Below are positions 2,798 to 56,431 of a DNA stretch of 64,000 nucleotides, one piece after another (position 1 is the stretch's first letter; each line of letters opens with the position of its first letter). The notes below the pieces were generated by a model. It saw nothing but the letters and a program-made list of their open reading frames with translations, did no database searches and was not told the origin of the DNA. Source of the stretch: a bacterium (GTDB taxonomy: Bacteria > Patescibacteriota > Minisyncoccia > Moranbacterales > GWC2-37-73); the NCBI GenBank assembly GCA_037140955.1, contig JBAXDL010000002.1, forward strand, positions 28,176-92,175, in the 5' to 3' direction. A program made the position numbers and the translations under genes.

Positions 2798-3832
2798 ATG
2801 AAATACAAGCTATATACAACTTCCTTCAAAGCTTGGGATGCCATGATTGAGGCAATCGATGGAGCATCAAAATCAATATACCTTGAAATGTATATTTTTG
2901 AACGCGACACCACTTCAAGTCATGACTTCATTGGCAAGCTGAAACAAAAAGCCCGTGATGGTGTGCGAGTCGTGATTGTGGCTGATGCCTATGGCAGCAA
3001 GAACCTGAAAAATGAATTGGCAAAATCAATGCAAGCAGCTGGCATTGAGCTTATTTTTTTTAGTCATTGGCTGCGGCACATTCACAGAAAAATATTAATC
3101 GTCGACAAAAAAATAGCCTTTGTGGGTGGGGTCAATATTGGCAAGGAATTTGCTCACTGGGATGATTTGCAACTTCGCATGAAAGGTGGAATTGTCAAAA
3201 GAATCTTGAAATCATTTGCCTATACCTATGAAATGGCTGGCGGAAAAGATCACAAAATTTTGCACTTGAAAAATGGAAAATTCACAGCAAAATTAAAATT
3301 TTTGATCATGGAGCATTGGCCAACCAAAAACATTCATACCCTGAAAAGTCATTACATCGAAAAAATTTCTAACGCCAAAAAAAGTATTCAAATTGCAACT
3401 CCATATTTCACTCCGCCACGCTGGCTCAGCTCCCTGCTCGACAGTGCCGCCAGCAGAGGCGTCGCAATTGAAATTCTCATTCCAAGCGATGTTGATTTAA
3501 AAATAATGAACAATGTGAACCGCCACTACATGAACAAATTGAATCCCTCGGGAGTAAAGTTTTATTTGTCAAAAAAAATGAATCATGCCAAGCTTCTTAT
3601 TGTTGATCATGAAGAAGGATTGATTGGTTCGCAAAACATTGACCTTGCTTCCTTTCAATTGAACTCTGAAGTAGGGATATTTTTTAAAGAAAAAAAATTG
3701 CTAACAGAACTGGAAACAACCATCAAAAAATGGAAACAGAATTCAGAAATATTCAAACCACAAAAACACAAAATGCGATTTATTGACTATGTCATCCTGG
3801 CCCTGTCAAAAATATTATATCCAATATTATAG
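2798..3832 (+). CDS. PLD-superfamily protein with two HKD motifs (cardiolipin-synthase-like, no N-terminal TM helices)
   Basis: Two HxKxxxxD motifs: HRKILIVDKKIAFVGGVNIG and HAKLLIVDHEEGLIGSQNID. 344 aa. Confidence 0.7.
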   Translation: MKYKLYTTSFKAWDAMIEAIDGASKSIYLEMYIFERDTTSSHDFIGKLKQKARDGVRVVIVADAYGSKNLKNELAKSMQAAGIELIFFSHWLRHIHRKILIVDKKIAFVGGVNIGKEFAHWDDLQLRMKGGIVKRILKSFAYTYEMAGGKDHKILHLKNGKFTAKLKFLIMEHWPTKNIHTLKSHYIEKISNAKKSIQIATPYFTPPRWLSSLLDSAASRGVAIEILIPSDVDLKIMNNVNRHYMNKLNPSGVKFYLSKKMNHAKLLIVDHEEGLIGSQNIDLASFQLNSEVGIFFKEKKLLTELETTIKKWKQNSEIFKPQKHKMRFIDYVILALSKILYPIL

Positions 3833-4014
3833 CCACAAAAAAGAGCACCCTCCAAAGACACACAGATAATTCAGAAATACTATAGAATTTTTTTGTGAAA
3901 CCTATTTCTTATGAAGCAACAGCAAGCGAGAGCGAGCTCTTAGCGAAGCAGTTATAGTTCCCAACTGCAAGCGTGCTGAAAAAGAAATAGCGTGAACAGA
4001 AAAATATCACTACT

Positions 4015-5262
4015 ATGCCAAAAATTCAAATTACCGCCAAGGGTATCAGAGCTGCACTAAAAAAATATACACCATATCAATCACTAACAGAATACATCTG
4101 GAATGGTTTTGACGCTCAAGCATCAACCATTGAAATAAACTATATCGCCAACGAATTGGGAGGAATCGAATCAATTTCAATCAGTGATAATGGCTATGGC
4201 ATTCCACATGAAAAATTGCAAGATAAATTTGAACCAGTTTTTGAATCAAAAAAAGCCCTCGAAAACAAACTCAAAAAAAATCTCTCAGCTATTCATGGAA
4301 AAAACGGAATTGGACGATTGACCTTTTTCACTTTTGCCAGAAATTCATCATGGAAAACAACATATTCCAGCGGCCAAGAAAATTTGACCTATGAAATATA
4401 TGCCAACGCTGAAAACATCAACCTATACACCGGCATCAACGCCACACCAAAAAAGACCACCGAGCAAACCGGCACAACAACAACATTTTCTGGAATTTTT
4501 GGATTGACAGCCTCTCAACTTGAAGAAAAATTTCAAGAATATTTGCTCAAAGAATTTGCCTGGTTTTTGGCACTCAACAAAAAGCGCAATTTTTCAATTC
4601 TAATCAACGGCATTGCTATTGATTTCAAAAATATTGTTGCCGACAGTGAACAATTTGAAATATTGCATCCAGACACACAAACCTTGTTTGAAGTTTCATA
4701 CATCAGATGGGAACAAAGACTCAACAATGAACCATCACGCTATTATTACATGAACGCACAGCATCAGGAGCGCTGGAAAGAGCCAACCGCCATCAAGAAC
4801 AAGGGTGAGCAATTTTATCACAGCCTTTTTGTCGAAAGTTCATATTTTGACTCTTTTGGATTTCAAAGTTCTTCGATTCAAACTCAAGATGCTCTCATTG
4901 TTGGAACCAGGAGCGATTCGCAATTTCGATTCTTGCGAAGAAAATTGGCAAACACTTTGCGCATCAAAAGAAGACCATTTCTCAAGGGTTTTGCTGAGCA
5001 ACTCTTGCTTGAATATGAGCAAAAAAATATTCTTCCAGTTGATGCCAAAGAAAATCTAAAACAAACAATCAGGATTTTATACGAAATGCAACCAAAAATT
5101 TTCAATTCGCTGAATCTTGAACAGAAAAAAATATTAGTCGGCTTGCTTGGAGCGCTCCTTGAAAGCAACAAAAATGAAGCCATTGCAGGACTTCTTGGCG
5201 GAATCATTGAGCTTACCGCTGATGAACAAGCAGAACTTGCCCAACTATTGTTGCCGGTATAG
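4015..5262 (+). CDS. Standalone GHKL (HATPase_c-like, Bergerat fold) ATPase
   Basis: N-box-like EYIWNGFDAQAS, G1 box ISDNGYGI and G2-like HGKNGIGRLTFF near the N-terminus. No kinase dimerisation/His domain and no MutL or topoisomerase C-terminal domains recognised. Confidence 0.55.
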   Translation: MPKIQITAKGIRAALKKYTPYQSLTEYIWNGFDAQASTIEINYIANELGGIESISISDNGYGIPHEKLQDKFEPVFESKKALENKLKKNLSAIHGKNGIGRLTFFTFARNSSWKTTYSSGQENLTYEIYANAENINLYTGINATPKKTTEQTGTTTTFSGIFGLTASQLEEKFQEYLLKEFAWFLALNKKRNFSILINGIAIDFKNIVADSEQFEILHPDTQTLFEVSYIRWEQRLNNEPSRYYYMNAQHQERWKEPTAIKNKGEQFYHSLFVESSYFDSFGFQSSSIQTQDALIVGTRSDSQFRFLRRKLANTLRIKRRPFLKGFAEQLLLEYEQKNILPVDAKENLKQTIRILYEMQPKIFNSLNLEQKKILVGLLGALLESNKNEAIAGLLGGIIELTADEQAELAQLLLPV

Positions 5263-7546: not shown

Positions 7547-7885
7547 TTATTCAGCCTTCTTTTCTGCAGCAGCAGGTGCGGCAACTTCAGCTTTTGCTTC
7601 TTCCACAACTGGAGCAGCTGGTTTTTCCATCTTGACCTGACGCTTCTTTCCTTCAATCACACCTTCTTTAATGAAAAGATTGTATGCACTGTTAGAAACT
7701 TGCGCTCCTTTTGCAATCCATTCTCTAATCTTATCAGCCTTAAGAACAGCAATTTTTTGATGTGGGTCATAGCTTCCAAGAACTGCAACATGTCCACCAG
7801 TAGGGGCTGCTGTGTGCTGTTGAAGCACTACTCGAAATTGAGCTCTGTTTTTTCGTCCAACGCGTGAGAATCTAATAGTCAACAT
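7547..7885 (-). CDS. rpsP: 30S ribosomal protein S16, with Ala/Glu-rich C-terminal extension
   Basis: MLTIRFSRVGRKNRAQFRVVLQQHTAAPTGGHVAVLGSYDP... Confidence 0.85.
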   Translation of the reverse strand: MLTIRFSRVGRKNRAQFRVVLQQHTAAPTGGHVAVLGSYDPHQKIAVLKADKIREWIAKGAQVSNSAYNLFIKEGVIEGKKRQVKMEKPAAPVVEEAKAEVAAPAAAEKKAE

Positions 7886-7971
7886 AATTTCCGTCTTTAT
7901 TACAATTAATTACCAGGTATTCAAAAATCCCTGTTTTTAGCCAAAATTAGGCCTTTTTTTAGTACCTATCT

Positions 7972-7999
7972 AGTATACCCCTCTTGACGAATTTGTCAA
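7972..7999 (-). promoter_or_regulatory. Candidate sigma70-type promoter for rpsP (-35 TTGACA, 16 nt spacer, -10 TATACT on the minus strand)
   Basis: Plus tgtcaa at 7994-7999 and agtata at 7972-7977, about 85 nt upstream of the rpsP start. It sits inside the ttgacgaatttgtcaa palindrome. Confidence 0.35.
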
Positions 8000-8080
8000 T
8001 AGTTTGCTAGTCAACATCCCCCATTTGCTGAAATTTCAATGCTTATAGTAAAATTTCATCATTTGCAAAAAATATAATAA

Positions 8081-8110
8081 AAACAAAAACCCTGCCGAAG
8101 CAGGGTTTTT
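8081..8110 (-). terminator. Rho-independent (bidirectional-looking) terminator after the HU gene
   Basis: ccctgc-cgaa-gcaggg stem flanked by an A-run on one side and a T-run on the other. Confidence 0.55.
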
Positions 8111-8132
8111 GAAAAGTTGAAAACTTCTAAAA

Positions 8133-8429
8133 TTACAATACTGCTTCTTTAGCAGCTTTTGCAAGACGGAATTTAACAACAGTCTTTGCAGCAATTTTGA
8201 TTTTTTCTCCAGTTGCAGGGTTCACTCCCATACGAGCCTTTCTTTTTGCTTTAACCATTTTACCAAATCCAGGAAGAACGAATTCTCCAGTCTTCTTTAC
8301 TTCTTTGTATGCAATTGCAACCAATTCATCAAAGAATCCAGTTACTTCTTTTTTTGCCAAGCCTGTTTTTTCAGACAAGACTGTCACTAGTTGTGACTTT
8401 GTCATTTTTGCCATTGTGTTTTTTTTCAT
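8133..8429 (-). CDS. HU/IHF-family DNA-binding protein
   Basis: MTKSQLVTVLSEKTGLAKKEVTGFFDELV...GKMVKAKRKARMGVNPATGEKIKIAAKTVVKFRLAKAAKEAV. The true start may be an internal Met at 8414 or 8405. Confidence 0.85.
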   Translation of the reverse strand: MKKNTMAKMTKSQLVTVLSEKTGLAKKEVTGFFDELVAIAYKEVKKTGEFVLPGFGKMVKAKRKARMGVNPATGEKIKIAAKTVVKFRLAKAAKEAVL

Positions 8430-8597
8430 TTCTAATCCAGCAATAATGCTAGTTTAAAAACAAATTATTTATTATTTATTTATCATTATGCATGTTGACT
8501 CATGCATGTCATCATTATACACCATTATTAAAAGGTTTGACAATAGGCAATTTGATTTTTGTCAATGGTCATGGTGTGTGCATTTGATTTTTAAAAT

Positions 8598-9515
8598 TTA
8601 CTTGACGTTTATTGGCGCAATATCAACTTTTTTCAGAACTGTGCGAGCAAAACAAAAATTTCCAGCATCATGTTTCCATTCATTTGTGTATTGAAAATAT
8701 TGTGGAGCAACATCATTCAAACTTGAACGCAAAAATGTTGCGCATAATTTGTATGATTTTTCATCTTCTATTTTATATTCAATATCTTTCAAGTTTCCAG
8801 TACCATATGAAAATTTTGTTGTCTGCAAATCATCCAATTTTGCTGGCAATTTTTCAGACTCACCAAAATAGCTTTGGATTGAATTGTCGATTGACTGAAT
8901 GGTGTCGATTGACTGCTGGTCAAGCTTCTTTTGCCTTGCCACATTTGGAGAGTCAATAATGAAAAAAGCCGCAATAAATGTCACACCAAGCACTAGCATG
9001 CAAACAATCATGGCATTTTTATTGATATTTGAAACATCCTCAGTTCTACGCATATCCCAGAAGTAATATCCAAAAATTCCGCCAGCAATCAAAAGAATCA
9101 CCAAAACTTTCAACAAAAAGCTGGAAGTAAAATCACCACCAAGAAAATTGACCACCAAGGTGATGAGATCGCCAATGATTGTTGCTGATGCAAAAAACAA
9201 AACAATATAGGTCAACCATTTTCTAATTTTTGACTCCAATGAAATCCTTCCAGCATTAATTCTTGCAACGATTATCCTTGAAACAAAAAGGAAGATGGGT
9301 CCAGCAATGAAGAGTGCTGCAATACCAAATTTCACAGACTCCTGAGAAAATGACTGATACAAAAGTCCCTCAGTGTCAGTCACAAATTTATCAACAAAAC
9401 CAAACAAAATAGAACCTTCACCAATAGAAACAAATGCCAGCGACAAAAAAGTCACCAAATAAAGAAAGAAATCCTGCGCGCTACTGTCTTGTTTTACTGA
9501 AATTTCATTTTCCAT
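8598..9515 (-). CDS. Hypothetical polytopic membrane protein with soluble C-terminal domain
   Basis: Four or more predicted TM helices in the first 180 aa, then a hydrophilic roughly 120-aa tail. Family not recognised. Confidence 0.4.
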   Translation of the reverse strand: MENEISVKQDSSAQDFFLYLVTFLSLAFVSIGEGSILFGFVDKFVTDTEGLLYQSFSQESVKFGIAALFIAGPIFLFVSRIIVARINAGRISLESKIRKWLTYIVLFFASATIIGDLITLVVNFLGGDFTSSFLLKVLVILLIAGGIFGYYFWDMRRTEDVSNINKNAMIVCMLVLGVTFIAAFFIIDSPNVARQKKLDQQSIDTIQSIDNSIQSYFGESEKLPAKLDDLQTTKFSYGTGNLKDIEYKIEDEKSYKLCATFLRSSLNDVAPQYFQYTNEWKHDAGNFCFARTVLKKVDIAPINVK

Positions 9516-9712
9516 ATCGGATAGTAGAAATTCAAATGGCCTTTGGCCAATATGAATCTCCTTAGTTATGTATTTTTTAATTTTAATTATATCCTACATT
9601 TATCTATACTTTTTCTATTTTTTTGAATTTTCACTATCCGACATAATTTTTAAATTTAAAATTTTATTTGAATTATTAAAGTAATACAAAAAATGAGACA
9701 GAATGTCTCATT

Positions 9713-12013
9713 TTATTTTGCAATTATTTTTCCACCTTGCCCAATCTGATCAAGCTTAACCGAAAGCAGTTTTGAAATTCCATCTTCCCCCATGGTCACA
9801 CCATACAAAAGTGATGCTTGGCGCATGGTTTCACGATTATGCGTGATGGCAATAAATTGAGTTGTGCCAGAAAGTTCTTGCAAAATCTTGCTAAAGCGAG
9901 CTGAATTTGCTTCATCAAGGGCAGCTTCAACTTCATCAAGAATTGCAAATGGTGGTGGATTGTGAGAAATGATAGCAAAAAGAAGTGCCAATGAAGTCAG
10001 TGAGCGTTCTCCACCAGATAGCATGGACAAATTGGCAATTTTTTTGCCTGGCGGACAAGCAAAGATTTCAACCCCCACCTCACCTCTTTCATTTTCGGCA
10101 TCTTGATCTTCTTTTTCAGTTTCATCGCCAGCCTCTGATTCACTATTTTTGAATTTTGACTTTTGAATTTTGACTTTTGTCAGGTTTGCATTCCCTCCAC
10201 CGAAAATAATTTTGAAATATTTGGTAAATTCCTTGTTGATTTGCTCAAAAGCTTGCTCAAACTCAACTTTGATTCTTTGATCCATCTCCTTTATGATCTC
10301 TTCGAGAGAAACAAGTGCATCTGCCAAGTCTTTCAATTCTTGGGTCAAAAAATCAAAACGTGCATTTGTTTCAGTATATTCCTGAACAATCATTGGATCG
10401 ATTCCACCAATTTGCTCCATCTGAGTTTTGAGTCTCATGATGTCACGCTCAAGTTGCTCTCTGTTGATCTCTGTTCCATCATATTTCAATTCTTGCACTT
10501 CACATCTGAGTTCATCCTTGATTTCATTGACCAAATCTTCTTCTCGAACCTCAACTCTGGCCAACTTTATCTTTGCATCATTAAATTGATCCTTGATGAG
10601 ATTGAGCTGCTCCTGACGAGCGCGCGATTCTCTTTCAACTTGAAAAAATCTCTCACGCAAAGCTCGCACTCTTTGATTTTCTGCTGAAATTTCTTTTTCT
10701 ACTTTTTCAAAATCACCTCGAAGCTCAACTTCTTTTGCTTTGAATTTTTTCTTTTTCTCCTCAAGTTCAGCAATTTTGTTGTTGATCTCAGCAACCTCCT
10801 TGGAATTATCTCTTTTTACTGAAACTTCTCCCTTGCCAGATTGTTCATACAAGTCAAAAAGTTGCTGCTGAATGGCCCTGGCTGATTCTTTGATCTCCTG
10901 CAAGTCATCCATGTTTTCAGCCTCTTCAACGCGCAAAATGAGACGCTCCTGAGCCATGCGAATGTTGGAAAGTTTTGCTTGAACATATTTCAAATCAACC
11001 GGAATAATCTCAATCACTTTTTGATTGGCCAATTTTTCTTTTTCAACCACAATCCTTCCTTCTGAGATGATCAATTCCCGCTCAATGTCATTCAATTGAT
11101 AGCGAATTTGAGTTTTTTTCTTGTCCAATTCCACTTCAGCTCCTGCCTCCTGCGCTCTACTTGATTCATTGGTGAGCTCATCATTCATTTTGTCCACCTC
11201 TCTTTGCATGTTCATCATTGATGCTCCCAATGTTTCTTTTTCTTTCGAGAATTTTTCACGTTCATTTTGAAATTGATGCCACAAAAAAGAAAACAATTTT
11301 GTTTGTTTTTCTTTCAATTCATCAGAAACAATTTTTCCTTGTTGTGCTTTTTCAGCCTGACGTTTGAGCATCTTCAAATGCGGTTCAATTTCACGAATAA
11401 GCCCAGCAGTTCTTTCCATGTTTTCCTTGGTAGAATCAAGCTTTTTCAGTGCCCTGTCTTTTTTGATTTGATATTGCTTCACTCCAGCTGCATCTTCCAA
11501 CACGCTTCTGCGTTCAACTGGGGTGGCATTTAGCAAGGAATCAGACATTCCCTGATTGATCACACAATAACTTTCTTTTCCAACTCCAGCCTTGGCAAGA
11601 AGGTCGCTCACATCCAAAAGCCTGGAGCGATTTCCATTGATCAAATATTCTGATTCGCCAGAGCGATACAATTTCCTGGTGATGACAACTTCGCCATATT
11701 CCAAAGGAATTCTTTTGTCGCTATTGTCAAAATGAAGTGAAACCTGAGCACTGGAAAGTCTTGCCTTTGTTCCAGAACCTGCAAAAATGATGTCCTCAGC
11801 CTTTTTCCCACGCAAGGTTTTCATTGATTGCTCGCCCATGGCCCACTTGATTGCATCGGACGTGTTTGATTTTCCAGATCCATTTGGCCCAACAATAGCG
11901 GTTATCCCACAAGCTTCTCCTGCACTATTAAAATTCCCCGCTGGTAAAAATTCCAGCGCGGTTTTGTTTGCAAATGATTTGAAGCCCGATATTTCAACTT
12001 TTTTTAGATACAT
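9713..12013 (-). CDS. smc: SMC-family chromosome-condensation ATPase, unusually short (766 aa), no recognisable hinge domain
   Basis: N-terminus MYLKKVEISGFKSFANKT...GPNGSGKSN (Walker A). C-terminus LSGGERSLTSLALLFAI (signature motif) and ILDEVEAALD (Walker B). The middle roughly 450 aa is continuous coiled-coil-like sequence. Confidence 0.75.
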   Translation of the reverse strand: MYLKKVEISGFKSFANKTALEFLPAGNFNSAGEACGITAIVGPNGSGKSNTSDAIKWAMGEQSMKTLRGKKAEDIIFAGSGTKARLSSAQVSLHFDNSDKRIPLEYGEVVITRKLYRSGESEYLINGNRSRLLDVSDLLAKAGVGKESYCVINQGMSDSLLNATPVERRSVLEDAAGVKQYQIKKDRALKKLDSTKENMERTAGLIREIEPHLKMLKRQAEKAQQGKIVSDELKEKQTKLFSFLWHQFQNEREKFSKEKETLGASMMNMQREVDKMNDELTNESSRAQEAGAEVELDKKKTQIRYQLNDIERELIISEGRIVVEKEKLANQKVIEIIPVDLKYVQAKLSNIRMAQERLILRVEEAENMDDLQEIKESARAIQQQLFDLYEQSGKGEVSVKRDNSKEVAEINNKIAELEEKKKKFKAKEVELRGDFEKVEKEISAENQRVRALRERFFQVERESRARQEQLNLIKDQFNDAKIKLARVEVREEDLVNEIKDELRCEVQELKYDGTEINREQLERDIMRLKTQMEQIGGIDPMIVQEYTETNARFDFLTQELKDLADALVSLEEIIKEMDQRIKVEFEQAFEQINKEFTKYFKIIFGGGNANLTKVKIQKSKFKNSESEAGDETEKEDQDAENERGEVGVEIFACPPGKKIANLSMLSGGERSLTSLALLFAIISHNPPPFAILDEVEAALDEANSARFSKILQELSGTTQFIAITHNRETMRQASLLYGVTMGEDGISKLLSVKLDQIGQGGKIIAK

Positions 12014-13630: not shown

Positions 13631-13906
13631 CTATTGTCCTTCAATTTCAGTCAGATGCCAATGCTCACCTTTCACTTTTTTGATATTAAACTTTGTTCTT
13701 TCAAGAATTGTGCCTTTGGCAATGTTTTTGATTCCAAATTTCAAATTATCAATACTGATGTCTTCTGTGTGTTTTTCATGACCATCGTGCGCCAATGCAA
13801 TTTGCCCAATTTCCAAATTCACATATTCAATCTGTGAAAGTTTCTCACTTTTCACAATTTTCATGATATCATCAACAATTTCCTTGGCCAGCATAAAATC
13901 ATGCAT
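13631..13906 (-). CDS. HypA/HybF-like hydrogenase Ni-insertion protein, non-canonical: lacks the CxxC...CxxC zinc finger
   Basis: N-terminal MHD (HypA has the Ni-binding MHE), then FMLAKEIVDDIMKIVKSEKLSQIEYVNLEIGQIA matching the HypA N-domain. The C-terminal ...GEHWHLTEIEG resembles the HypA end. There is no Cys at all; His-rich instead (HDGHEKH, HWH). Confidence 0.45.
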   Translation of the reverse strand: MHDFMLAKEIVDDIMKIVKSEKLSQIEYVNLEIGQIALAHDGHEKHTEDISIDNLKFGIKNIAKGTILERTKFNIKKVKGEHWHLTEIEGQ

Positions 13907-13946
13907 ACGAGAGTGTAAAATGTAAAGTGTAAAAATAAAAGTACAC

Positions 13947-14288
13947 TCAACTCTTTTTTCTTAATGTAATTATACTTGATCCTAAAATATTTGCTATTTC
14001 TTGCGTTTCCTTTAAAATTTTCTCAGCCTTTTCTTTTTCTGCTTTTTTAGTGTCCCGCAATAATCCTAACCAGAATTTTGTTTCATTTGCAGACTTAAGC
14101 GCATAACTAAAAAAATTTGCAAAATCTTTCCTGGAGGCACCAGCTTGCGCTTCAACAATATTTGCACCAATACTAGTTGCGCTTCTCAATAATTGCTTTG
14201 AAATAACTTCAGTACTGAAATCTCGCTTATTTAATCCATCAACAAACATTATGACATCAATTGCATAGAAATATGCTCTGTGCTTCAA
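13947..14288 (-). CDS. Four-helix-bundle protein (23S rRNA intervening-sequence protein / Avd-like family)
   Basis: LLRSATSIGANIVEAQAGASRKDFANFFSYALKSANETKFWLGLL is the family hallmark. Confidence 0.6.
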   Translation of the reverse strand: MKHRAYFYAIDVIMFVDGLNKRDFSTEVISKQLLRSATSIGANIVEAQAGASRKDFANFFSYALKSANETKFWLGLLRDTKKAEKEKAEKILKETQEIANILGSSIITLRKKS

Positions 14289-14349
14289 TTATGTTTTATT
14301 TTTTTCTTGCATTTTAGTTTTTCGTTTTTAGCTTTGCGTTTTGCACTTT

Positions 14350-15612
14350 CTAGTGGACCGCGCAGCTGATACATGGGTCGTAGGCACGAATGAAAGCGCG
14401 CATTTTTCGTTCCATGGCTTTTTCGTCTTTGTCCAAAATTCCAGGAATAAAGGCGGCTATGTCATCTTCCAGATGTGTCAAAACTTGAGCTGTTGGAGTG
14501 ATGATATTTGCATTTTTGATATACCCTTTTGCATCAATATCAACCCAATAATACAAGGTTCCGCGTGGAGCTTCAATGGCAGCAGCAGCCGACCCCTCAC
14601 GCACAGTATATTCCTTTGTGATTGCATTTTCAAGGTTTTCATGTGTAAGCTCTTTGAGCAAGCGAATTGAATCCTCAATGCAATGCACAACCTCCACCAT
14701 TTGATATATAACATTGTGAAATGGATTATAGTCTGGCAAATTAAATTCCAAACTTTTCAGATATTTTTGAGCAGCAGGACTCAATTGTTCGTGATTATTG
14801 TTAATTCTGGCAATAGCGCCAATCATATAACTTGTTTTTCCATCACGTTCAACTCTCTTGATGACCTCCTTTGGACGTTGAAATTCATGAAAACTTTCTT
14901 CAAATTTTTGAGCACTAACATTCAATCCTTTGTTTGAAATAACATCACCCTCGCAAATTGCATATTCACCTTTTGTGCGAAGACAAACATATTCAGTTGG
15001 ACGAGAAAAATTTGGAACTTTAATTGTTTTGAAAAATGCTGCCAATTCCAAGGCTATTGGCAAAATCTCCTCCCCATTGGCAATAAGCTTTTGCAATTGA
15101 TCAACTGTTGGAACTTTTTTGAAACCACCAACTTCATTTGTGAGAGAATGAACGACTCGGCCACCAAGAGTTTTGACAATAGCCATGCCATATTCACGAA
15201 TTTTCACCGCCTTGATTGTTTCTTCGGGATAGGCTTTGATCAAATCCAAGTCATTTTCAATGTCCAAAAAATCTGCCAATGACAAAAAGAAAAGATGCAG
15301 CGCGTGAGAATGAATAAATTGAGCATGCTCCAAAACTTTTCGCATTTTTATTGTTTCTGGTGTGACCTCAACCTTCATTGCATTTTCAATGGCCTTGATT
15401 GCTGTCAGATTGTGCACAATTGGACAAATACCACAAATTCGCTGGGCGATTGTTGGCATGTCTTTGTAATTTCGGCCAACCAAAATCCCTTCAATCAAGC
15501 GAATTCCCTCTTGCACTTCAAATTTGGCTGATTTCACATCGCCCTTGATAACACTAGCCATAAAGCCAGTATGTCCTTCAATTTTTGCAATGTGATTTAT
15601 TTTTATATTCAT
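14350..15612 (-). CDS. [NiFe]-hydrogenase large subunit, group 3 type; ends exactly at the C-terminal His
   Basis: N-terminal RICGICPIVH (L1 motif). The C-terminal DPCISCAVH is immediately followed by the stop, so there is no cleavable extension. 420 aa. Confidence 0.9.
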   Translation of the reverse strand: MNIKINHIAKIEGHTGFMASVIKGDVKSAKFEVQEGIRLIEGILVGRNYKDMPTIAQRICGICPIVHNLTAIKAIENAMKVEVTPETIKMRKVLEHAQFIHSHALHLFFLSLADFLDIENDLDLIKAYPEETIKAVKIREYGMAIVKTLGGRVVHSLTNEVGGFKKVPTVDQLQKLIANGEEILPIALELAAFFKTIKVPNFSRPTEYVCLRTKGEYAICEGDVISNKGLNVSAQKFEESFHEFQRPKEVIKRVERDGKTSYMIGAIARINNNHEQLSPAAQKYLKSLEFNLPDYNPFHNVIYQMVEVVHCIEDSIRLLKELTHENLENAITKEYTVREGSAAAAIEAPRGTLYYWVDIDAKGYIKNANIITPTAQVLTHLEDDIAAFIPGILDKDEKAMERKMRAFIRAYDPCISCAVH

Positions 15613-15758
15613 AGATTTTTTATGTTTAATATTTTTGTAAATAGTATGTGAAAATATGTTTTTATTTTTGCGCTTAAAACAAGATTCCTTGGTTGTTATT
15701 TCGAAAGTTGCAATTGTTTTTCCGCGCCAAAAATAAAAATATATTTGAACAATCTAAC

Positions 15759-16550
15759 CTATCCCTTGTGCTCCCCTTCCCATTTCTCAACATCATCACG
15801 AAGACCAAAAATCTCAGTAGTGTTTTCAAATTCTTCATCTGTCATCATGTTTTTGAGCGCCATCTTCATTGATTTGACATTAGCAGTTGGACGCAGACCG
15901 CGACAACCTTGGCATCCCATGCGAGAACTAGGGCAAACGGCCTCACATCCACCCAGAATCATTGGACCAAAGCAAGGCTTTTTGTCCAAAAGCAAACAAC
16001 GATTTCCTTGCTCTTTGCACTGCACACAAACTGGACTGTCAGGAATTGTTGGCAAAGCAGTGCCATCCTTCACGTTTGCTAGCAATATCGGAAAATATGC
16101 CAAAAATTCTTCTCCTGTGATTGGACAACCAGGGAAAGTAAAATCAACCTTCACAAAATTATTAACTTCTTTGATTTCTTCATTCTCAATTCCTTGCATG
16201 TATTTGTACACATGCTTGATGGTGTTTTTTCCTTCTTGATAATTTTTAATCTCTGGCACACCACCCATGGCAGCGCAGTTTCCAATCACCACCAACAATT
16301 TGCTGCGTTTTCGAAGCTCCAAGAGAGTTTTGATGTTTGCTTTGGTGGCAGGATTTCCCTCCACAAAGGCAATGTCCAAATCAACACCTGGATCTTCCAA
16401 ATCCTCCAGCAAACGAAAATCAACCATCTCAACTTGCGCCACAGCTTCCAAAAATTTGACACCCAAATCCAAAAGCACAAATTGACACCCTTCGCATGAT
16501 GTCAAAGAAACAATAGCAATTTTTGGTTTTTTCACTTCTTGATTTTCCAT
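15759..16550 (-). CDS. [NiFe]-hydrogenase small subunit, group 3 (delta-type)
   Basis: KIAIVSLTSCEGCQ is the group-3 small-subunit N-terminal motif. Also GNCAAMGG and multiple Cys clusters (CVQCKEQGNRC, CEAVCPSSRMGCQGC) for FeS clusters. Confidence 0.85.
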   Translation of the reverse strand: MENQEVKKPKIAIVSLTSCEGCQFVLLDLGVKFLEAVAQVEMVDFRLLEDLEDPGVDLDIAFVEGNPATKANIKTLLELRKRSKLLVVIGNCAAMGGVPEIKNYQEGKNTIKHVYKYMQGIENEEIKEVNNFVKVDFTFPGCPITGEEFLAYFPILLANVKDGTALPTIPDSPVCVQCKEQGNRCLLLDKKPCFGPMILGGCEAVCPSSRMGCQGCRGLRPTANVKSMKMALKNMMTDEEFENTTEIFGLRDDVEKWEGEHKG

Positions 16551-16655
16551 ATTTATTTTATTTTTATTTGTAATATTTGCACACTAATAAAACCTATTTT
16601 ATTGTATCATATTTTTAAACATAAAAAAATGAGGATTCTTAGAATCCTCATTACA

Positions 16656-17318
16656 CTACATCCTTTTTTTCAAAATTGAAAGATATGGAAAGTCAAAATG
16701 ATTAACATTTCCAGCCAAAAACCTTGCAGCCTCCATAAAATCAGAGTCATTTGCCTGTGAATACAAAAGATTCTTAATCAAAACAACACCTGGCGCATCA
16801 TCAACAACCATGGGATAGTGACAAAGCACAGTTTTTCCCTCAATCATTTCTTTTCTGTCTTTCTCCCAAAAAAGAATACCATTGACTTTGACTGCAACGC
16901 TGCCATTTCGATATTCACCGATCATAATATTGTCTTTTGGTGAAACCTTTTTGATCACAATTGGCATCAGCATGTGATTGAAGATGGTGTAATTGTAAAA
17001 CTTTCCACCTCTGGGGATTTGCTCCTTTACAAGATCACCCAAAACAACATCCGTGTGAAACGATGAGCCAAAATAATTTACAATCACCTCCCTGTCAATA
17101 TCTTTTTTGCCAAGATTTTTTGCAACCAAAACAATAGCTTCTTTGCGTTCATCCCATTGTTGCAGCTTTTTGCAAAATTTTGCAAAATCAATATCAATCT
17201 TCTTTGCTAAATTTTCTTCAATAACCTTGCGATTATTTTCACTACTAGGTTTCCCATCAACATAGCAACTGAAAAACATTTTGTAAAAAAGCTCCATCGC
17301 ATCAGCAGTAATTTTCAT
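16656..17318 (-). CDS. Hypothetical 220-aa soluble protein inside the hydrogenase operon, between hypC and the small subunit
   Basis: No recognisable motifs and only four Cys, so it is not an FeS/diaphorase subunit. Same strand with tight spacing to both neighbours. Confidence 0.4.
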   Translation of the reverse strand: MKITADAMELFYKMFFSCYVDGKPSSENNRKVIEENLAKKIDIDFAKFCKKLQQWDERKEAIVLVAKNLGKKDIDREVIVNYFGSSFHTDVVLGDLVKEQIPRGGKFYNYTIFNHMLMPIVIKKVSPKDNIMIGEYRNGSVAVKVNGILFWEKDRKEMIEGKTVLCHYPMVVDDAPGVVLIKNLLYSQANDSDFMEAARFLAGNVNHFDFPYLSILKKRM

Positions 17319-17321
17319 GGC

Positions 17322-17528
17322 CTATTTCCTTTCATTGATTATGTTAAAGATCTCTTGAGCTTGTCTTTTGTCCATTTTTTCAAGCACAACATTTTGCTGC
17401 GACATGACAAAATCACCGATTGCTAATTCTACAATAGTTTTCATTTCCTGTCTATCGCCCTTGAAATCTTCTACCACCACAAGATCACCCCTGACTTCAA
17501 CGACTTTTTTTGGAATTGTTAGGCACAT
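17322..17528 (-). CDS. hypC: Hydrogenase maturation factor HypC/HupF
   Basis: Starts MCLTIP (the HypC hallmark is MC[LG][AGT]IP), 68 aa. Confidence 0.85.
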   Translation of the reverse strand: MCLTIPKKVVEVRGDLVVVEDFKGDRQEMKTIVELAIGDFVMSQQNVVLEKMDKRQAQEIFNIINERK

Positions 17529-49271: not shown

Positions 49272-50150
49272 TCAAAAGGAGGTTAGCCTTTGACACATGT
49301 CCTTAGCCCTTTGACAGCGATAAACAATATCCCCAAGCTCATCAGTTCTGAAAATATTAATCTTGTGATTTTTGAGTCTTTGCAAAACTTCTTGATTTGG
49401 ATGACCATATGAATTGTTTTTTCCAACTGAAATAATGGCATCCAATGGTTTTGCTGCAGCAAGAAATTCATTTCCGCTGGCATATTTTGAACCATGATGT
49501 GCTATTTTCAAAAATTGTGCCTCGATATCAATATTTTTTGCCAACAACTCATTTTCCTGCTCAGTTGGCAAATCACCAGTAAAAAGAAATTTATTAGACC
49601 CAAAAGTAAGTTTCACCACCACACTATATTTATTAGTATCTTTATTGTTAACATCATCAACACTTTGAAATGGGTAGATAACTTCAGCCACTGCTCCACT
49701 ATCAAATCTTATTATCAAAGATTGCTTGGCTTCAATTTTATTTATTCTATTTTCAACAATAAGGCTTTCTAATTTTTTGAAAGTTTGTGAATCATTTTGC
49801 ATTTTTGTTTCTATCACAGAATCCACGTTATACGCGCCAAGCACATCAATCAATCCACCAATATGATCAGCATCCGGATGTGTCTCAATAATGGTCTCAA
49901 TTTTTCTATCCCAAAATGGAACATATTTTCCCAATTTTTCCAATAATATTTTTCCATCCTTTCCACCATCAATCAAGATTTGCTGATCGCCCTCAGAAAT
50001 CAAAATACTATCACCTTGACCAACATCTAGAAAAACAACCGTGAGTTCATTCTTTTGTGGGTATAAAATAATCACACTCAAAATTATTCCAAGCAAAAAG
50101 AATGCGAGCAAAACAAAGTATATTAATTTGCGGTTATTTTTTTGATTCAT
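49272..50150 (-). CDS. comEC: ComEC/Rec2 C-terminal portion: TM anchor + metallo-beta-lactamase domain
   Basis: LTVVFLDVGQGDSILI, HPDADHIGG, ...IAHHGSKYAS... MBL motifs. Confidence 0.75.
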   Translation of the reverse strand: MNQKNNRKLIYFVLLAFFLLGIILSVIILYPQKNELTVVFLDVGQGDSILISEGDQQILIDGGKDGKILLEKLGKYVPFWDRKIETIIETHPDADHIGGLIDVLGAYNVDSVIETKMQNDSQTFKKLESLIVENRINKIEAKQSLIIRFDSGAVAEVIYPFQSVDDVNNKDTNKYSVVVKLTFGSNKFLFTGDLPTEQENELLAKNIDIEAQFLKIAHHGSKYASGNEFLAAAKPLDAIISVGKNNSYGHPNQEVLQRLKNHKINIFRTDELGDIVYRCQRAKDMCQRLTSF

Positions 50151-51605
50151 TTATTCTTTTTCTTGATTTTGATTGGCAGACTTATTTATGTGCATTATTA
50201 GCATTGCTAGTATTATATAATAAAAAACAATCCACCACACCTCTATTTTTGCAATTGAAACACTGCTCCATGAGAATGATGCCAGAAGTTGAATTGTTTT
50301 TATTTCATAAAACAACAAGCAAAATGAGAGCCAGCCAAAAACAATTGCAAGTGGCGTGAAAATAAAACCAAAAATTACCACCAAGAAAACAATCAGCATT
50401 GAAAGTGGAATAATCGGCAAGATCAAAACATTAGCCAAAAGTGAAATCAGGGAAACAATTTTGAAATTATAGACAATTATTGGAAGTACAAAAAATTGAG
50501 CACTGAGCGAAAGTGCTATTATTTCAGAAATACCAAAGACTTTATTTTTTTTGATAAAATTTTTTTCCCAAAAAGATGAAGTGGCAACAATTCCCAATGT
50601 TGCCAAAAAAGACAATTGAAAACCAACATCCCAGCGCAAAAGCAAAGGATTAAGCAATAGCATGGCAGATCCAGTAAAGATGATGGCGTTTTGTGATGAA
50701 GCCAATCTTCCATTTTTCATCGCCCAAAGCAAAACCGTGCTCATCACTCCAGCGCGCACAGCAGAGGCAGGAAGGCCTGCCATCACAACAAATAGCACAA
50801 TGCCACCAATAGCAAACCAAATCGCCTGAGGCCGCCATAGTCCCAAGAAAATTCCAAGTAAAATCAAGTATTCAGCCACGATCGTAACGTTATACCCGGA
50901 AACTGCCACAATATGAGTCATTCCCGTGATTGAAAAATCTTTTTGAATTTCTTTGGAAAGACCGGCATTTCCACCAAACAAAAGTCCAATTGCCAGTGCC
51001 CCTTCTGGCATGGGAATAACTTTGACAATTTTGTCTTCAAAACTTTTTTTGGCCGAGATTATTTTGGCATAAATCCAGCTTCCAGCATTTTTTTCAACTT
51101 TTTCAATCTTACCTTTTTCGCATTGATACAGCACACCCTCCTTGGCCATATACATCCTATAATCAAAACTAGCGTCCTTGTTTTCAATGGCGTTTAATGT
51201 GCAATTTAGCTGCAAAATGTCACCATAGGTATATTGCGGATACTGCGGTGCTTGCAACAATAAATAAATATTTTCTTCTTGCAAGCCAACAACTACATTT
51301 TGACCAAAAAATGATTGCGTAGATTTTTGAACAATAACTTTTCCGTCAAAATTCATTCCAAGATAAACAAGATTATTTGCATTATCAATTTTCTTATTAG
51401 TGACAAAATATCCAACAAAAAAGGCGAGCAAAATAAAAGCGACCAAGGTCGCTAGTTTATTTTTATAAAAAAGAAAAAACAAAACTAAAGAAAAAATCAA
51501 TAAAACAAAATAATAATTTCCACTTATTTCAAAAAATGAACGGGCAAATACTCCGCCAATAAAACTTAAAAGCAAAAATAATAATATTTTCGATTTAGTA
51601 ATCAT
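50151..51605 (-). CDS. comEC: ComEC/Rec2 N-terminal portion: DUF4131 + competence membrane-channel domain
   Basis: Polytopic membrane protein with the ComEC competence-domain pattern (...GYNVTIVA...VMAGLPASAVRAGVM...). Stop TAA at 50151-50153 is immediately followed, in frame, by the ATG of the MBL part. Confidence 0.7.
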   Translation of the reverse strand: MITKSKILLFLLLSFIGGVFARSFFEISGNYYFVLLIFSLVLFFLFYKNKLATLVAFILLAFFVGYFVTNKKIDNANNLVYLGMNFDGKVIVQKSTQSFFGQNVVVGLQEENIYLLLQAPQYPQYTYGDILQLNCTLNAIENKDASFDYRMYMAKEGVLYQCEKGKIEKVEKNAGSWIYAKIISAKKSFEDKIVKVIPMPEGALAIGLLFGGNAGLSKEIQKDFSITGMTHIVAVSGYNVTIVAEYLILLGIFLGLWRPQAIWFAIGGIVLFVVMAGLPASAVRAGVMSTVLLWAMKNGRLASSQNAIIFTGSAMLLLNPLLLRWDVGFQLSFLATLGIVATSSFWEKNFIKKNKVFGISEIIALSLSAQFFVLPIIVYNFKIVSLISLLANVLILPIIPLSMLIVFLVVIFGFIFTPLAIVFGWLSFCLLFYEIKTIQLLASFSWSSVSIAKIEVWWIVFYYIILAMLIMHINKSANQNQEKE

Positions 51606-54901: not shown

Positions 54902-56401
54902 TTATGATTTTTTAGTGGTACCCTTAGATGAACTCTTATATCCAGCCTGTTTTCTTGTTATATCAGCCGTTATTTCATATCTCATCAGTTTACTTCTGCG
55001 ACCAGTTTTCAAGTCAACAGCATACCATTTATACTTTCCGTAGTTCTTTTTTGCGATATAATAAACACTAAATGCTCCTTTTTTATCAGTCTTAACTGAG
55101 ATTGGTGGATAATAGCTCAAATTAGAACGAGAAAAATACAAATTAACCATTGAATTTTTGGAAAATCGCTTGCCTGTTTGGGTTATTTCACCACCTCTTT
55201 TAACTTTACTATAACTTTGATTTATCTGACGCTTTGGCTCTTCAACCTCATCTTCATCATCTTTTTTTTCAACAGATGCTGAAACCGGCGTTGAAATTGG
55301 AATTGCAGCTGCAGGAGCCTGAATTGAAAAGGCAGCAGAAAGTGCAGATTCATTGGCAAAATCATCATAAGCTGAAACACGATATTGATATGCGGTTGAA
55401 GGATTTATTGTTAAATCAGAATAACTAAGACTTGTCGTGGTTGCAATCTCAATATCGTTTCTATAGATCTTATATCCAGCAACTGCTACAATGTCTGATG
55501 ATGCTGCCCATGAAAGATCGGCTTGATTTGCGGAAACAACATTAACACTCAAACTTCCGGGCACTGTTGGTGCAATCAAGTCTCCGCCAGTATTTAGAAT
55601 TGAAAAAGATATAATATAATCATCAAGATTCACATTCAATGAATCATCTTGGCAACGCACATAATATGAATATGTTGACCCATTAGAAAGCCCAGTAACT
55701 GTCGTTGAATGAATAGTTCTTGCGCCAGTGTTTGCAAATTGTGTCATTGAAGCATAAGGAGTATCTACAGATGTTGAATAGGCACAAGTGGCATTTTCAT
55801 TAGTCATGAGTGAGATATTAGAACTAGTTGTGCCTGCTGAACGCGCCGAAGTTGGAGCTTTGTTCAAGCGAATTGGAGGATTTTCAACTGTTACGGAAAT
55901 TGCAGCAGACGCCTTTGCGCCATAATCGACAGTACTCGCATCACATGACAATGAATGAACACCATCAGCAACACCTGTAGTGTCCCATGTTATGCCATAT
56001 GGAAAAACAGTGTCCTGCTCGCCAAGATTAAAGCCATCTAATTTAAACTGAACCCCAGAAATTGGGACATCAATCGGAAGCGGGCTAGTTGCATCAGCAG
56101 TAACAGAAACAGACGCACCAGAAACTGTTGAGCCATCCACCGGAGCAGTAATACTACGCGATACAGTCATAGCACTAACGCTGTGCACGAAAATGTCATT
56201 TCTTTGATATTGATCTTCTTTAATTGCTAATAGTCCCTTAAGTTTAGAATCACGAAAAGAATCACCTTGCCTGACAAGTGCGAAGAATTTTTTGGAAAAT
56301 TTTACAATAGAAATAAATGAGTCAATATAAAACTGCACACAATAAACCAGAAGGATTGAAAAAGTGATGCTTATTATTTTTCTTTTTTTTATTTTTATCA
56401 T
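54902..56401 (-). CDS. Cell-surface protein with bacterial Ig-like and fibronectin type III domains (paralog 1)
   Basis: N-terminal anchor identical to paralog 2. Ig-like domain ...SGVQFKLDGFNLGEQDTVFPYGITWDTTGVADGVHSL.... FN3 ...APTVPGSLSVNVVSANQADLSWAAS...GYKIYRN...YQYRVSAYD... Confidence 0.55.
   Translation of the reverse strand: MIKIKKRKIISITFSILLVYCVQFYIDSFISIVKFSKKFFALVRQGDSFRDSKLKGLLAIKEDQYQRNDIFVHSVSAMTVSRSITAPVDGSTVSGASVSVTADATSPLPIDVPISGVQFKLDGFNLGEQDTVFPYGITWDTTGVADGVHSLSCDASTVDYGAKASAAISVTVENPPIRLNKAPTSARSAGTTSSNISLMTNENATCAYSTSVDTPYASMTQFANTGARTIHSTTVTGLSNGSTYSYYVRCQDDSLNVNLDDYIISFSILNTGGDLIAPTVPGSLSVNVVSANQADLSWAASSDIVAVAGYKIYRNDIEIATTTSLSYSDLTINPSTAYQYRVSAYDDFANESALSAAFSIQAPAAAIPISTPVSASVEKKDDEDEVEEPKRQINQSYSKVKRGGEITQTGKRFSKNSMVNLYFSRSNLSYYPPISVKTDKKGAFSVYYIAKKNYGKYKWYAVDLKTGRRSKLMRYEITADITRKQAGYKSSSKGTTKKS
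56261..56398. repeat. 138-bp direct repeat (copy 1) covering the 5' end of paralog 1
   Basis: Identical to 57191-57328 apart from 1-2 mismatches. Encodes ...KIKKRKIISITFSILLVYCVQFYIDSFISIVKFSKKFFALVRQGDSF. Confidence 0.85.
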
Positions 56402-56431
56402 GTGAAATAAAAACTCAAATATTTTAAATAT

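What the first reader, a model, noticed from the sequence alone, without database searches (positions are those of the whole stretch)
9713..12013. Short SMC (766 aa) with no recognisable hinge
The head motifs are canonical (Walker A, signature LSGGERS, Walker B DEVEAALD). The region between them is about 450 aa of uninterrupted coiled-coil-like sequence with no Gly-rich globular hinge. Canonical SMC proteins are about 1150-1200 aa. Either the arms and hinge are drastically reduced or dimerisation occurs differently.
Basis: partly seen in the sequence, partly recalled or inferred. Interest (0 to 1): 0.5.

Follow-up and report, generated by a model that had tools for sequence, protein, structure and literature searches.

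The report
Natural hinge-less, half-length bacterial SMC
This is an intact chromosome-organising SMC ATPase from an ultra-small (CPR/Moranbacteria) bacterium that has half-length arms and, instead of the usual globular "hinge" that joins two SMCs, a small helical cap, and the same design recurs in many related genomes.

Summary
Window 9713..12013 (-) encodes an intact 766-aa protein with complete SMC ATPase motifs. It scores above NCBIfam's curated Smc cutoff (TIGR02168, 643 vs 567 bits).

No hinge is detectable by four tests: Pfam PF06470 at E<=10, a hinge HMM built from its nearest hinge-bearing relatives, profile-profile comparison (0.04-0.13% vs 100% control), and AlphaFold2.

It is not an artefact. 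More than 120 protein clusters, about 60 species genomes and an independent assembly share the form.

The arms are about half the canonical length. The hinge is replaced by a conserved ~76-aa apex (residues 328-403): two short helices whose base is clamped by a two-stranded beta ladder. The apex has no CxxC hook and no known structural relative.

Among the 150 nearest database representatives, 138 are hingeless. They fall into discrete sizes (~750, ~880, ~1050 aa) that differ by paired indels on both arm strands.

Synteny (smc upstream of HU and rpsP, as for a hinge-bearing CPR Smc) points to the true Smc ortholog. How it dimerises, and whether ScpAB is present, could not be tested.

Hinge-less SMCs were reported once, in 2025, for a marine actinobacterial clade, so this is a new variant of a barely known kind.

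The parts
9713..12013 (-). smc gene, 766 aa plus stop: hinge-less, short-armed Smc
   Evidence: ORF. TIGR02168 scores 643.1 bits against a cutoff of 567.35. Head halves align to B. subtilis Smc head structures 5xg3/3zgx at E about 1e-109. The start and end of the gene are intact.
11501..12013 (-). N-terminal half of the ATPase head (residues 1-171), including Walker A 42-49 (nt 11867-11890) and Q-loop 152-155; a variable 11-12 aa insertion lies at residues 24-35
   Evidence: Alignment to Bs Smc head residues 1-213. Motifs confirmed. Residues 24-35 are variable and have low pLDDT.
11033..11479 (-). N-terminal arm helix (residues 179-327; one kink at 289-290)
   Evidence: AF2 helices H179-288 and H291-327; H290-330 in the fragment model.
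10805..11032 (-). Apex module replacing the hinge (residues 328-403): linker/beta strand ~335-338 with invariant IPVDLxYV 337-344, helix a1 341-364, turn 365-367, helix a2 368-394, G393-x-G395, beta strand ~396-399
   Evidence: Better conserved than the flanking arm. Architecture comes from AF2. It is conserved across diverse ~750-aa relatives. An HMM of it finds 20/65 class A and 17/69 class B representatives, and 0 hinge-bearing or shuffled sequences. It has no similarity to the hinge, to PDB sequences or to PDB folds.
10202..10804 (-). C-terminal arm helices (residues 404-604) with breaks at 503-517 and 536-539 (conserved GGIDP...EY joint motif)
   Evidence: AF2 helices H404-502, H518-535 and H540-604. 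Residues 528-612 align to the Bs Smc head-proximal coiled coil.
9713..10201 (-). C-terminal half of the ATPase head (residues 605-766): signature LSGGERS 665-671 (nt 10001-10021), Walker B/D-loop 689-700 (nt 9914-9949), H725; variable acidic insertion 613-644 (nt 10082-10177)
   Evidence: Alignment to Bs Smc C-terminal head at 131 bits. Motifs. The insertion is hypervariable with pLDDT about 30.
9688..9712 (-). Terminator-like hairpin plus T-run immediately after the stop codon (AATGAGACATTCTGTCTCATTTTTT)
   Evidence: Read directly from the sequence. It shows the gene ends naturally.
8133..8429 (-). HU (Bac_DNA_binding) gene downstream of smc; context only, with rpsP (S16) at 7547-7885
   Evidence: ORFs. 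Pfam labels on the same contig. HU directly follows smc in a relative's locus.

Best explanation
This is the organism's genuine Smc (the chromosome-organising SMC ATPase of the Smc-ScpAB type) in a naturally miniaturised, hinge-less form.

Shown: the ATPase head is complete and Smc-like. The polypeptide folds back on itself into an antiparallel coiled-coil arm. The arm runs about 157-165 residues per strand to a beta-clamped break, followed by a ~25-residue two-helix cap. By inference (0.148 nm per residue) that is roughly 28 nm, against ~47 nm in B. subtilis. The globular hinge is absent and is replaced by a conserved ~76-aa apex module. The same design is the common form in Moranbacteria and related Parcubacteria.

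Inferred: the protein still works as a homodimeric, ATP-driven DNA-organising motor. Two heads sandwich ATP, a kleisin (ScpA, with ScpB) bridges head and neck, and the two arm tips are held together by apex-apex association. That association could be a four-helix bundle of the two a1/a2 hairpins and/or edge-to-edge pairing of the short beta ladders. This is analogous to the apical-helix dimer of RecN, and functionally equivalent to the experiment in which the B. subtilis hinge was replaced by a Rad50 zinc hook without loss of function.

Arm length in the family is not free. It changes in discrete steps through paired indels on both strands.
For: Smc identity:
- TIGR02168 scores above its curated cutoff.
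- Heads match the B. subtilis Smc head at E about 1e-109, and all catalytic motifs are present.

No hinge:
- Pfam PF06470 is absent at E<=10 and in 0/65 relatives of the same size.
- A hinge HMM built from the 9 nearest hinge-bearing relatives, run with --max, gives 0/182 (~750 aa) and 0/70 (~880 aa) at E<1e-3, with best noise 0.38.
- hhalign of the apex against the hinge gives probability 0.04-0.13%, against 100% for the control.
- AF2 shows only helices plus two 4-residue strands between the heads.

Real and widespread.

Apex is a selected module:
- Its entropy is lower than that of the flanking arm, and it holds many invariant residues.
- The architecture is conserved at ~35-45% overall identity.
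- The apex HMM hits both the ~750 and ~880 aa classes and no controls.
- The region 310-350 has the highest density of conserved hydrophobic positions in the arm, and both apex helices have ~160 degree hydrophobic arcs.

Orthology:
- Synteny GAPDH-smc-HU...rpsP-rplJ-rplL is conserved.
- A hinge-bearing Buchananbacteria Smc also sits just upstream of rpsP.
- The hinge-bearing and hingeless Buchananbacteria proteins that could be traced come from different assemblies.
- No hinge-bearing hit carries a Moranbacteria name.

Quantised arms:
- Inter-head lengths cluster at 380-405, 510-530 and 670-685 aa.
- Indels are paired: 58+58, 65+68 and 74+94 aa.
- The length classes are not clades by head identity.

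Precedent:
- The nature of the dimerisation domain is uncritical, and arm length is periodically constrained, in B. subtilis (PMC5344682).
- The RecN dimer interface lies in its apical helices (PMC4255302).
Against: - Dimerisation at the apex is not shown. Only monomer predictions were possible, the apex loops have modest confidence (pLDDT 38-67), and the hydrophobicity excess over ordinary arm is small.
- Foldseek finds only generic antiparallel coiled coils, so there is no support from a known dimerisation fold.
- ScpA/ScpB were not found in the ~79 kb of this genome inspected, nor within +-10 kb of smc in about 60 related genomes. The latter search was weak.
- A second, canonical SMC elsewhere in the genome was not excluded at whole-genome level.
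- The match of arm lengths to the published 163/238/341-aa modes depends on how much of the apex is counted as arm.
Confidence: 0.6

Rival explanations
1. Head-only dimer: the apex is merely a capped end of each arm and does not join two protomers. The protein would then dimerise only through ATP-engaged heads (plus kleisin, if present). DNA would be clamped at the heads or in the kleisin compartment, and the short arms would act as levers, as rod-forming surfaces or as spacers. It would not form a closed tripartite SMC ring.
For: No recognisable dimerisation fold or zinc hook is present. The apex fragment models as a continuation of an antiparallel coiled coil. The conserved-hydrophobic excess of the two apex helices over ordinary arm is small (0.30-0.33 against 0.20-0.27).
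Against: The apex is the best-conserved part of the arm, with many invariant polar and hydrophobic residues on several helix faces. A passive cap would not need that. The module is retained while arm length changes around it. In B. subtilis some tip dimerisation domain was kept in all functional constructs (PMC5344682).
Confidence: 0.25
2. Specialised paralogue: a hinge-less SMC-like protein with a different job (repair, defence or plasmid control) that coexists with a canonical Smc encoded elsewhere in the genome.
For: Whole genomes could not be searched. Buchananbacteria-named proteins include both hinge-bearing and hingeless forms. Other hinge-less SMC-superfamily proteins (RecN, Rad50/SbcC) are repair factors.
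Against: The score is at equivalog level against the Smc model, while RecN, Rad50 and ASRP models score about 40 bits against cutoffs of 300-1000. The housekeeping synteny is shared with a hinge-bearing CPR Smc. There are no defence or nuclease partners nearby. The two Buchananbacteria forms trace to different assemblies. All 120 best hits of this protein are the short form.
Confidence: 0.08
3. Artefact or cryptic hinge: the gene is truncated by misassembly or frameshift, or the middle region is a hinge too divergent to recognise.
For: None found.
Against: The reading frame is intact with a natural start and a terminator. The identical gene occurs in independent assemblies. Length is conserved in more than 100 clusters and about 60 species genomes. 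Hinge HMM, hhalign and AF2 are all negative, with working positive controls.
Confidence: 0.01

Closest known systems
Bacterial Smc of the Smc-ScpAB complex (B. subtilis Smc; NCBIfam TIGR02168; PDB 5xg3, 3zgx)
   Same: Head sequence and all ATPase motifs, the head-proximal coiled coil with its joint motif, the intramolecular antiparallel arm, and genomic linkage to rpsP. The whole-protein score is above the curated cutoff.
   Different: No hinge domain. The inter-head region is ~397 aa instead of ~860 aa. The apex is a ~76-aa helical/beta-clamp module. The head carries small lineage-specific insertions (24-35, 613-644). ScpAB partnership is unverified.
Engineered B. subtilis Mini-Smc and Smc(Zh) zinc-hook chimera (Burmann et al. 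2017, PMC5344682)
   Same: Shortened arms and a non-hinge dimerisation element can support Smc function. Only discrete arm-length regimes are allowed. Natural Smc arm lengths are multimodal (238, 341 and 515 aa, with minor modes at 163 and 423). Here the hinge-bearing CPR relatives fit ~238-aa arms. This protein fits ~160 aa if the apex module is excluded.
   Different: This is a natural protein, not engineered. The apex is neither a hinge nor a zinc hook. That study located arms by finding a hinge, so hinge-less sequences would not have been measured. The ~880 and ~1050 aa classes match the published modes only under particular assumptions about apex size.
Hinge-less SMC clade from ocean metagenomes assigned to Actinomycetes (Sussfeld et al. 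2025, PMC12153180)
   Same: SMC-type head plus antiparallel coiled coil, no hinge and no CxxC hook. It appears to be the only SMC in its genomes, and the mechanism is unknown.
   Different: A different lineage (CPR/Parcubacteria, freshwater and groundwater-type assemblies). The nearest hinge-bearing relatives here are CPR Smc proteins, which suggests an independent loss. A direct sequence comparison with the marine clade was not possible.
RecN
   Same: An SMC-superfamily ATPase with a short coiled coil and no hinge, whose dimer interface lies in apical alpha-helices (PMC4255302). It is the best mechanistic precedent for a helical tip dimer.
   Different: Not a member: TIGR00634 scores 41 bits against a cutoff of 408. 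RecN arms are much shorter, and the heads here are Smc-type.
Rad50/SbcC and archaeal ASRP/ClsN
   Same: Head, long coiled coil and a small non-globular apex.
   Different: Those families dimerise through a CxxC zinc hook (PMC9389158). Here there is no CxxC (2 of 270 relatives have one by chance, and this protein has only Cys504). Family scores are far below the cutoffs.

Membership tests
Bacterial Smc (TIGR02168, Smc-ScpAB type) | Whole-protein profile score at or above the curated equivalog cutoff | tested here: met
   643.1 bits against a cutoff of 567.35.
Bacterial Smc (TIGR02168, Smc-ScpAB type) | Split ABC-type head with Walker A, Q-loop, signature motif, Walker B, D-loop and H-loop | tested here: met
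   All motifs are present. Heads align to Bs Smc head structures at E about 1e-109.
Bacterial Smc (TIGR02168, Smc-ScpAB type) | Long intramolecular antiparallel coiled-coil arm | tested here: met
   AF2 shows helices 179-327 and 404-604 folding back on each other. The arm is about half the canonical length.
Bacterial Smc (TIGR02168, Smc-ScpAB type) | Central globular hinge dimerisation domain (Pfam PF06470) | tested here: not met
   No Pfam hit at E<=10. The lineage-specific hinge HMM is negative. hhalign probability is <=0.13% with a 100% control. No hinge-like fold appears in the models.
Bacterial Smc (TIGR02168, Smc-ScpAB type) | Arm of about 340 aa per strand (about 47 nm) | tested here: not met
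   The inter-head region is ~397 aa in total, giving about 160 aa per strand plus a 76-aa apex. The Bs value of 344 aa comes from PMC5344682.
Bacterial Smc (TIGR02168, Smc-ScpAB type) | Kleisin ScpA and ScpB encoded in the genome | not testable with these tools
   Absent from the window and about 14 kb beyond it, and from the +-10 kb flanks in relatives by a weak search.
Bacterial Smc (TIGR02168, Smc-ScpAB type) | Positional orthology (smc linked to rpsP) | tested here: met
   smc...HU...rpsP occurs here and in a relative. A hinge-bearing CPR Smc lies 2 kb upstream of rpsP.
RecN | Profile score at or above the TIGR00634 cutoff | tested here: not met
   41.2 bits against 407.85.
Rad50/SbcC/ASRP | CxxC zinc hook at the coiled-coil apex | tested here: not met
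   No CxxC between the heads; Cys504 is the only Cys there. Family scores are 27-42 bits against cutoffs of 300-1000.
MukB/MksB/JetC | Match to family profiles | tested here: not met
   No such family appears among the Pfam hits or the 25 best of 34 NCBIfam hits.
Hinge-less SMC (Sussfeld et al. 2025) | Smc-type head and coiled coil, no hinge, no CxxC | tested here: met
   The description of the clade is in PMC12153180.
Hinge-less SMC (Sussfeld et al. 2025) | Membership of the same (marine, Actinomycetes-assigned) monophyletic cluster | not tested
Taxonomy and nearest relatives here are CPR.

The most novel reading that the evidence does not exclude
In a large part of the Parcubacteria (CPR), the sole cellular Smc has dispensed with any stable arm-tip dimerisation. 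The complex would then not be a closed tripartite ring: DNA would be handled only by ATP-engaged heads and the kleisin compartment. Arm length would nevertheless stay quantised because the arm itself, rather than the ring, is the mechanical element.
Probability: 0.2. Interest if true: 0.85.

Novelty: new variant of a known kind. Interest (0 to 1): 0.6.

Why it matters
The hinge is treated as a defining and functionally important part of SMC proteins: a dimerisation site, a DNA-binding surface, and a proposed DNA gate. If a whole bacterial radiation uses a hinge-less, half-length Smc as its housekeeping condensin, then a globular hinge is dispensable for cellular SMC function.

Such a protein also offers a minimal natural SMC (766 aa) for structural and single-molecule work.

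The family provides a natural counterpart to the B. subtilis arm-resizing experiments. Arm length varies in discrete steps through paired indels while the apex is kept. That makes the idea that arm length is mechanically tuned testable with evolutionary data.

Finally, hinge-based pipelines and annotation (many of these proteins are labelled only 'AAA family ATPase') will miss or misclassify them.

Tried and rejected
- Cryptic hinge: rejected by Pfam at E<=10, a lineage-specific hinge HMM, hhalign with a positive control and two AF2 models.
- Assembly truncation: rejected.
- Zinc hook: rejected.
- Apex similarity to any solved structure: nothing by sequence, and only generic coiled coils by fold.
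Three literature searches found no statement on ScpAB in these lineages.
- Paralogy test by searching the large database with the hinge profile: it returned only short, unnamed hinge fragments and was uninformative.
- Cluster look-up for taxonomy of the representative sequences: no names.
- Head-domain NJ tree: outgroup extraction failed and the tree was unrooted with no support values. I used only pairwise identities from it.
- Fit to the published arm-length modes: class A (~160 aa) and the hinge-bearing relatives (~238 aa) fit. The fit for the ~880 and ~1050 aa classes depends on assumptions, so I do not claim it.
Full report
**Observation.** The ORF at 9713..12013 (-) is real and encodes 766 aa.
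- An in-frame stop lies 6 codons upstream of the ATG, and a hairpin plus T-run follows the stop codon.
- All ATPase motifs are present: Walker A 42-49, Q-loop 152-155, signature 665-671, Walker B/D-loop 689-700 and H725.
- Pfam finds SMC_N spanning residues 2-747 and generic AAA families, but no SMC_hinge (PF06470) even at E<=10.
- NCBIfam's Smc equivalog TIGR02168 scores 643 bits against a cutoff of 567. RecN, Rad50 and ASRP models score only about 40 bits against cutoffs of 300-1000.
- The two head halves align to B. subtilis Smc head structures (5xg3, 3zgx) at E about 1e-109.
The inter-head region is ~397-426 aa and has several predicted breaks.

**Not an artefact.**
- 117 of the 120 best clusters in the 5.8-billion-protein collection are 760-813 aa, at 63-100% identity. 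Those that carry names are called Candidatus Moranbacteria or Parcubacteria.
- A scan of species-representative genomes found about 60 genomes with a full-length copy. They are Moraniibacteriota, Paceibacteria/Parcubacteria and 'Patescibacteria group', plus ~860-885-aa versions in Uhrbacteria and Komeilibacteria.
- An independent ENA assembly carries the identical gene in the same context.

**No hidden hinge.**
- I built a hinge HMM from the 9 nearest hinge-bearing relatives and ran it at maximum sensitivity. They score E 1e-72 to 1e-81. None of 182 proteins of ~750 aa, and none of 70 of ~880 aa, reaches E<1e-3; the best noise is 0.38.
- Pfam finds the hinge in 0/65 representatives of this protein's size class and in 9/13 of the >=990-aa class.
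- Profile-profile comparison of the apex with the hinge gives probability 0.04-0.13%, against 100% for a split-hinge control.

**Anatomy.**
- AlphaFold2 on the full protein (pLDDT 71) and on residues 285-445 (pLDDT 76) gives the arm helices 179-327 and 404-604.
- The apex has this order: strand ~335-338, helix a1 341-364, a three-residue turn, helix a2 368-394, strand ~396-399.
- The two strands lie in linkers that contain the invariant IPVDLxYV (337-344) and G393-x-G395.
- Residues ~317-400 are clearly better conserved than the arm on either side.
- They include the densest run of conserved hydrophobic positions in the arm. Both apex helices have ~160 degree hydrophobic arcs.
- There is no CxxC, no PDB sequence relative and no significant structural match. 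The best Foldseek hits (E>=0.05) are generic antiparallel coiled coils.
- Counting 0.148 nm per residue (inference), the arm is about 28 nm, against ~47 nm for B. subtilis Smc (PMC5344682).

**The wider family.** An exhaustive HMMER search of 1.84 billion representatives shows that the 150 nearest clusters fall into discrete sizes:

| Class | Length (aa) | Representatives | Hinge |
|---|---|---|---|
| A (this protein's class) | 725-790 | 65 | none |
| B | 825-915 | 69 | none |
| Longest | 990-1073 | 13 | 9 have one; 4 are all coiled coil |

- Only the 9 hinge-bearing members of the longest class have a hinge; the remaining 138 full-length representatives are hingeless.
- Inter-head lengths of hingeless members cluster at 380-405, 510-530 and 670-685 aa. 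Hinge-bearing relatives have 630-655 aa, which is ~238-aa arms after subtracting the hinge.
- The size classes are not clades. Head identity within classes (0.53-0.58 for the two large classes) is about the same as between them (0.51-0.59). Cross-class pairs reach 70-75%.
- In such pairs the length difference resolves into paired indels, one on each arm strand, flanking a retained centre: 58+58, 65+68 and 74+94 aa.
- An HMM of this protein's apex finds a central match in 20/65 of the ~750-aa class and 17/69 of the ~880-aa class. It finds none in hinge-bearing or shuffled sequences. The hinge replacement is therefore homologous across at least these two classes.

**Orthologue or paralogue?**
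- The gene sits in a housekeeping neighbourhood (GAPDH - smc - DUF5671 - HU - rpsP - rplJ - rplL). The same core order is kept in a relative at 74% identity.
- A hinge-bearing Buchananbacteria Smc also lies 2 kb upstream of rpsP.
- A search with a hinge-bearing CPR Smc returned Buchananbacteria, Falkowbacteria, Magasanikbacteria and 'Patescibacteria group' names, but never Moranbacteria.
- Buchananbacteria names occur on both forms. The four proteins traced come from different assemblies.
- This favours replacement of the ancestral Smc over paralogy, but no whole genome could be scanned.
- ScpA/ScpB are absent from the ~79 kb of this genome that I could see and from the flanks in relatives. 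That is uninformative for a genome I would expect, from general knowledge of CPR bacteria, to be around 1 Mb.

**Mechanism.**
- Shown: an intact Smc-type ATPase on a half-length arm, capped by a conserved helical/beta-clamp module.
- Inferred (about 0.6): it remains a homodimeric DNA-organising motor whose tips are joined by apex-apex contacts.
- Two precedents support this. RecN's dimer interface lies in its apical helices (PMC4255302). [quoted passage not shown]
- The main rival (about 0.25) is that the apex is only a cap and dimerisation is head-only.

**Prior knowledge and novelty.**
- I found no report of hinge-less Smc in CPR bacteria.
- One 2025 paper describes 'hinge-less' SMC in a marine clade assigned to Actinomycetes. 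It calls this a new kind of biology and gives no mechanism (PMC12153180).
- The 2017 survey of natural arm lengths located arms by finding a hinge, so it would not have measured these proteins.
- New here are the CPR distribution, the defined apex module, and the quantised arm classes linked by paired indels.
- I rate this a new variant of a known kind, of moderate-to-high interest to the SMC field.

Noticed in passing
window 7547-9515 and L001 12467-16569: An HU (Bac_DNA_binding) gene lies just downstream of smc, directly adjacent in a relative, with rpsP-rplJ-rplL beyond. The pairing of two nucleoid proteins recurs in both Moranbacteria-type loci examined.
   Followed up: partly
window 10082-10177 (residues 613-644) and 11909-11944 (residues 24-35): Two lineage-specific insertions in the ATPase head. 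One is a hypervariable acidic loop before the last head beta-sheet, and the other is an 11-12 aa loop before Walker A. Both have very low pLDDT.
   Followed up: no
P0391/P0417 vs P0447/P0483 (L085-L089): Proteins named Candidatus Buchananbacteria include both hinge-bearing (~1021-1030 aa) and hingeless (~890-895 aa) Smc, from different assemblies. This suggests hinge loss at shallow phylogenetic depth, or loose naming.
   Followed up: partly
P0189, P0236, P0265, P0268: Four ~1040-1073-aa relatives are all coiled coil between the heads, with no hinge. They also lack the apex module found in the shorter classes, so they may carry yet another kind of tip.
   Followed up: no
window 13631-17528: A [NiFe]-hydrogenase large subunit and an Oxidored_q6-type small subunit sit with hypA and a hypC-like gene, plus an unannotated 220-aa ORF (16656-17318). 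A 23S rRNA intervening-sequence protein gene (13947-14288) lies between hypA and the hydrogenase.
   Followed up: no
window 54902-57334: Two adjacent genes (499 and 300 aa; Big_7/fn3-like) share a nearly identical N-terminal stretch of about 47 residues, then diverge. This looks like a tandem duplication of a secreted or surface protein.
   Followed up: no
window 49272-51605: ComEC appears as two abutting ORFs: a DUF4131/Competence domain part (50151-51605) and a part that reads by eye as a metallo-beta-lactamase domain (49272-50150). It is either a natural split or a frameshift.
   Followed up: no
window 2798-5262: A PLD-family (PLDc_2) gene is followed by a HATPase_c_3 (MORC/GHKL-type ATPase) gene of 415 aa with no other recognisable domain. 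This is an unusual pair next to an RND efflux pump.
   Followed up: no
L084 13087-13353 (window about 58.1-58.5 kb): A separate 88-aa gene with an NRDD Pfam hit lies between the 731-aa anaerobic ribonucleotide reductase NrdD and its activase.
   Followed up: no
L006, L008, L009, L021, L045-L052 and others: Several TPA assemblies titled 'uncultured Bdellovibrionales' or 'uncultured Gammaproteobacteria' carry CPR-type short smc genes at up to 86% identity to this one. Those bins are probably mislabelled.
   Followed up: no
window 1-64000: GC skew is negative in every 2-kb bin. Nearly all genes from about 5.3 kb onward are on the minus strand, consistent with one replichore with strong gene-strand bias.
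   Followed up: no
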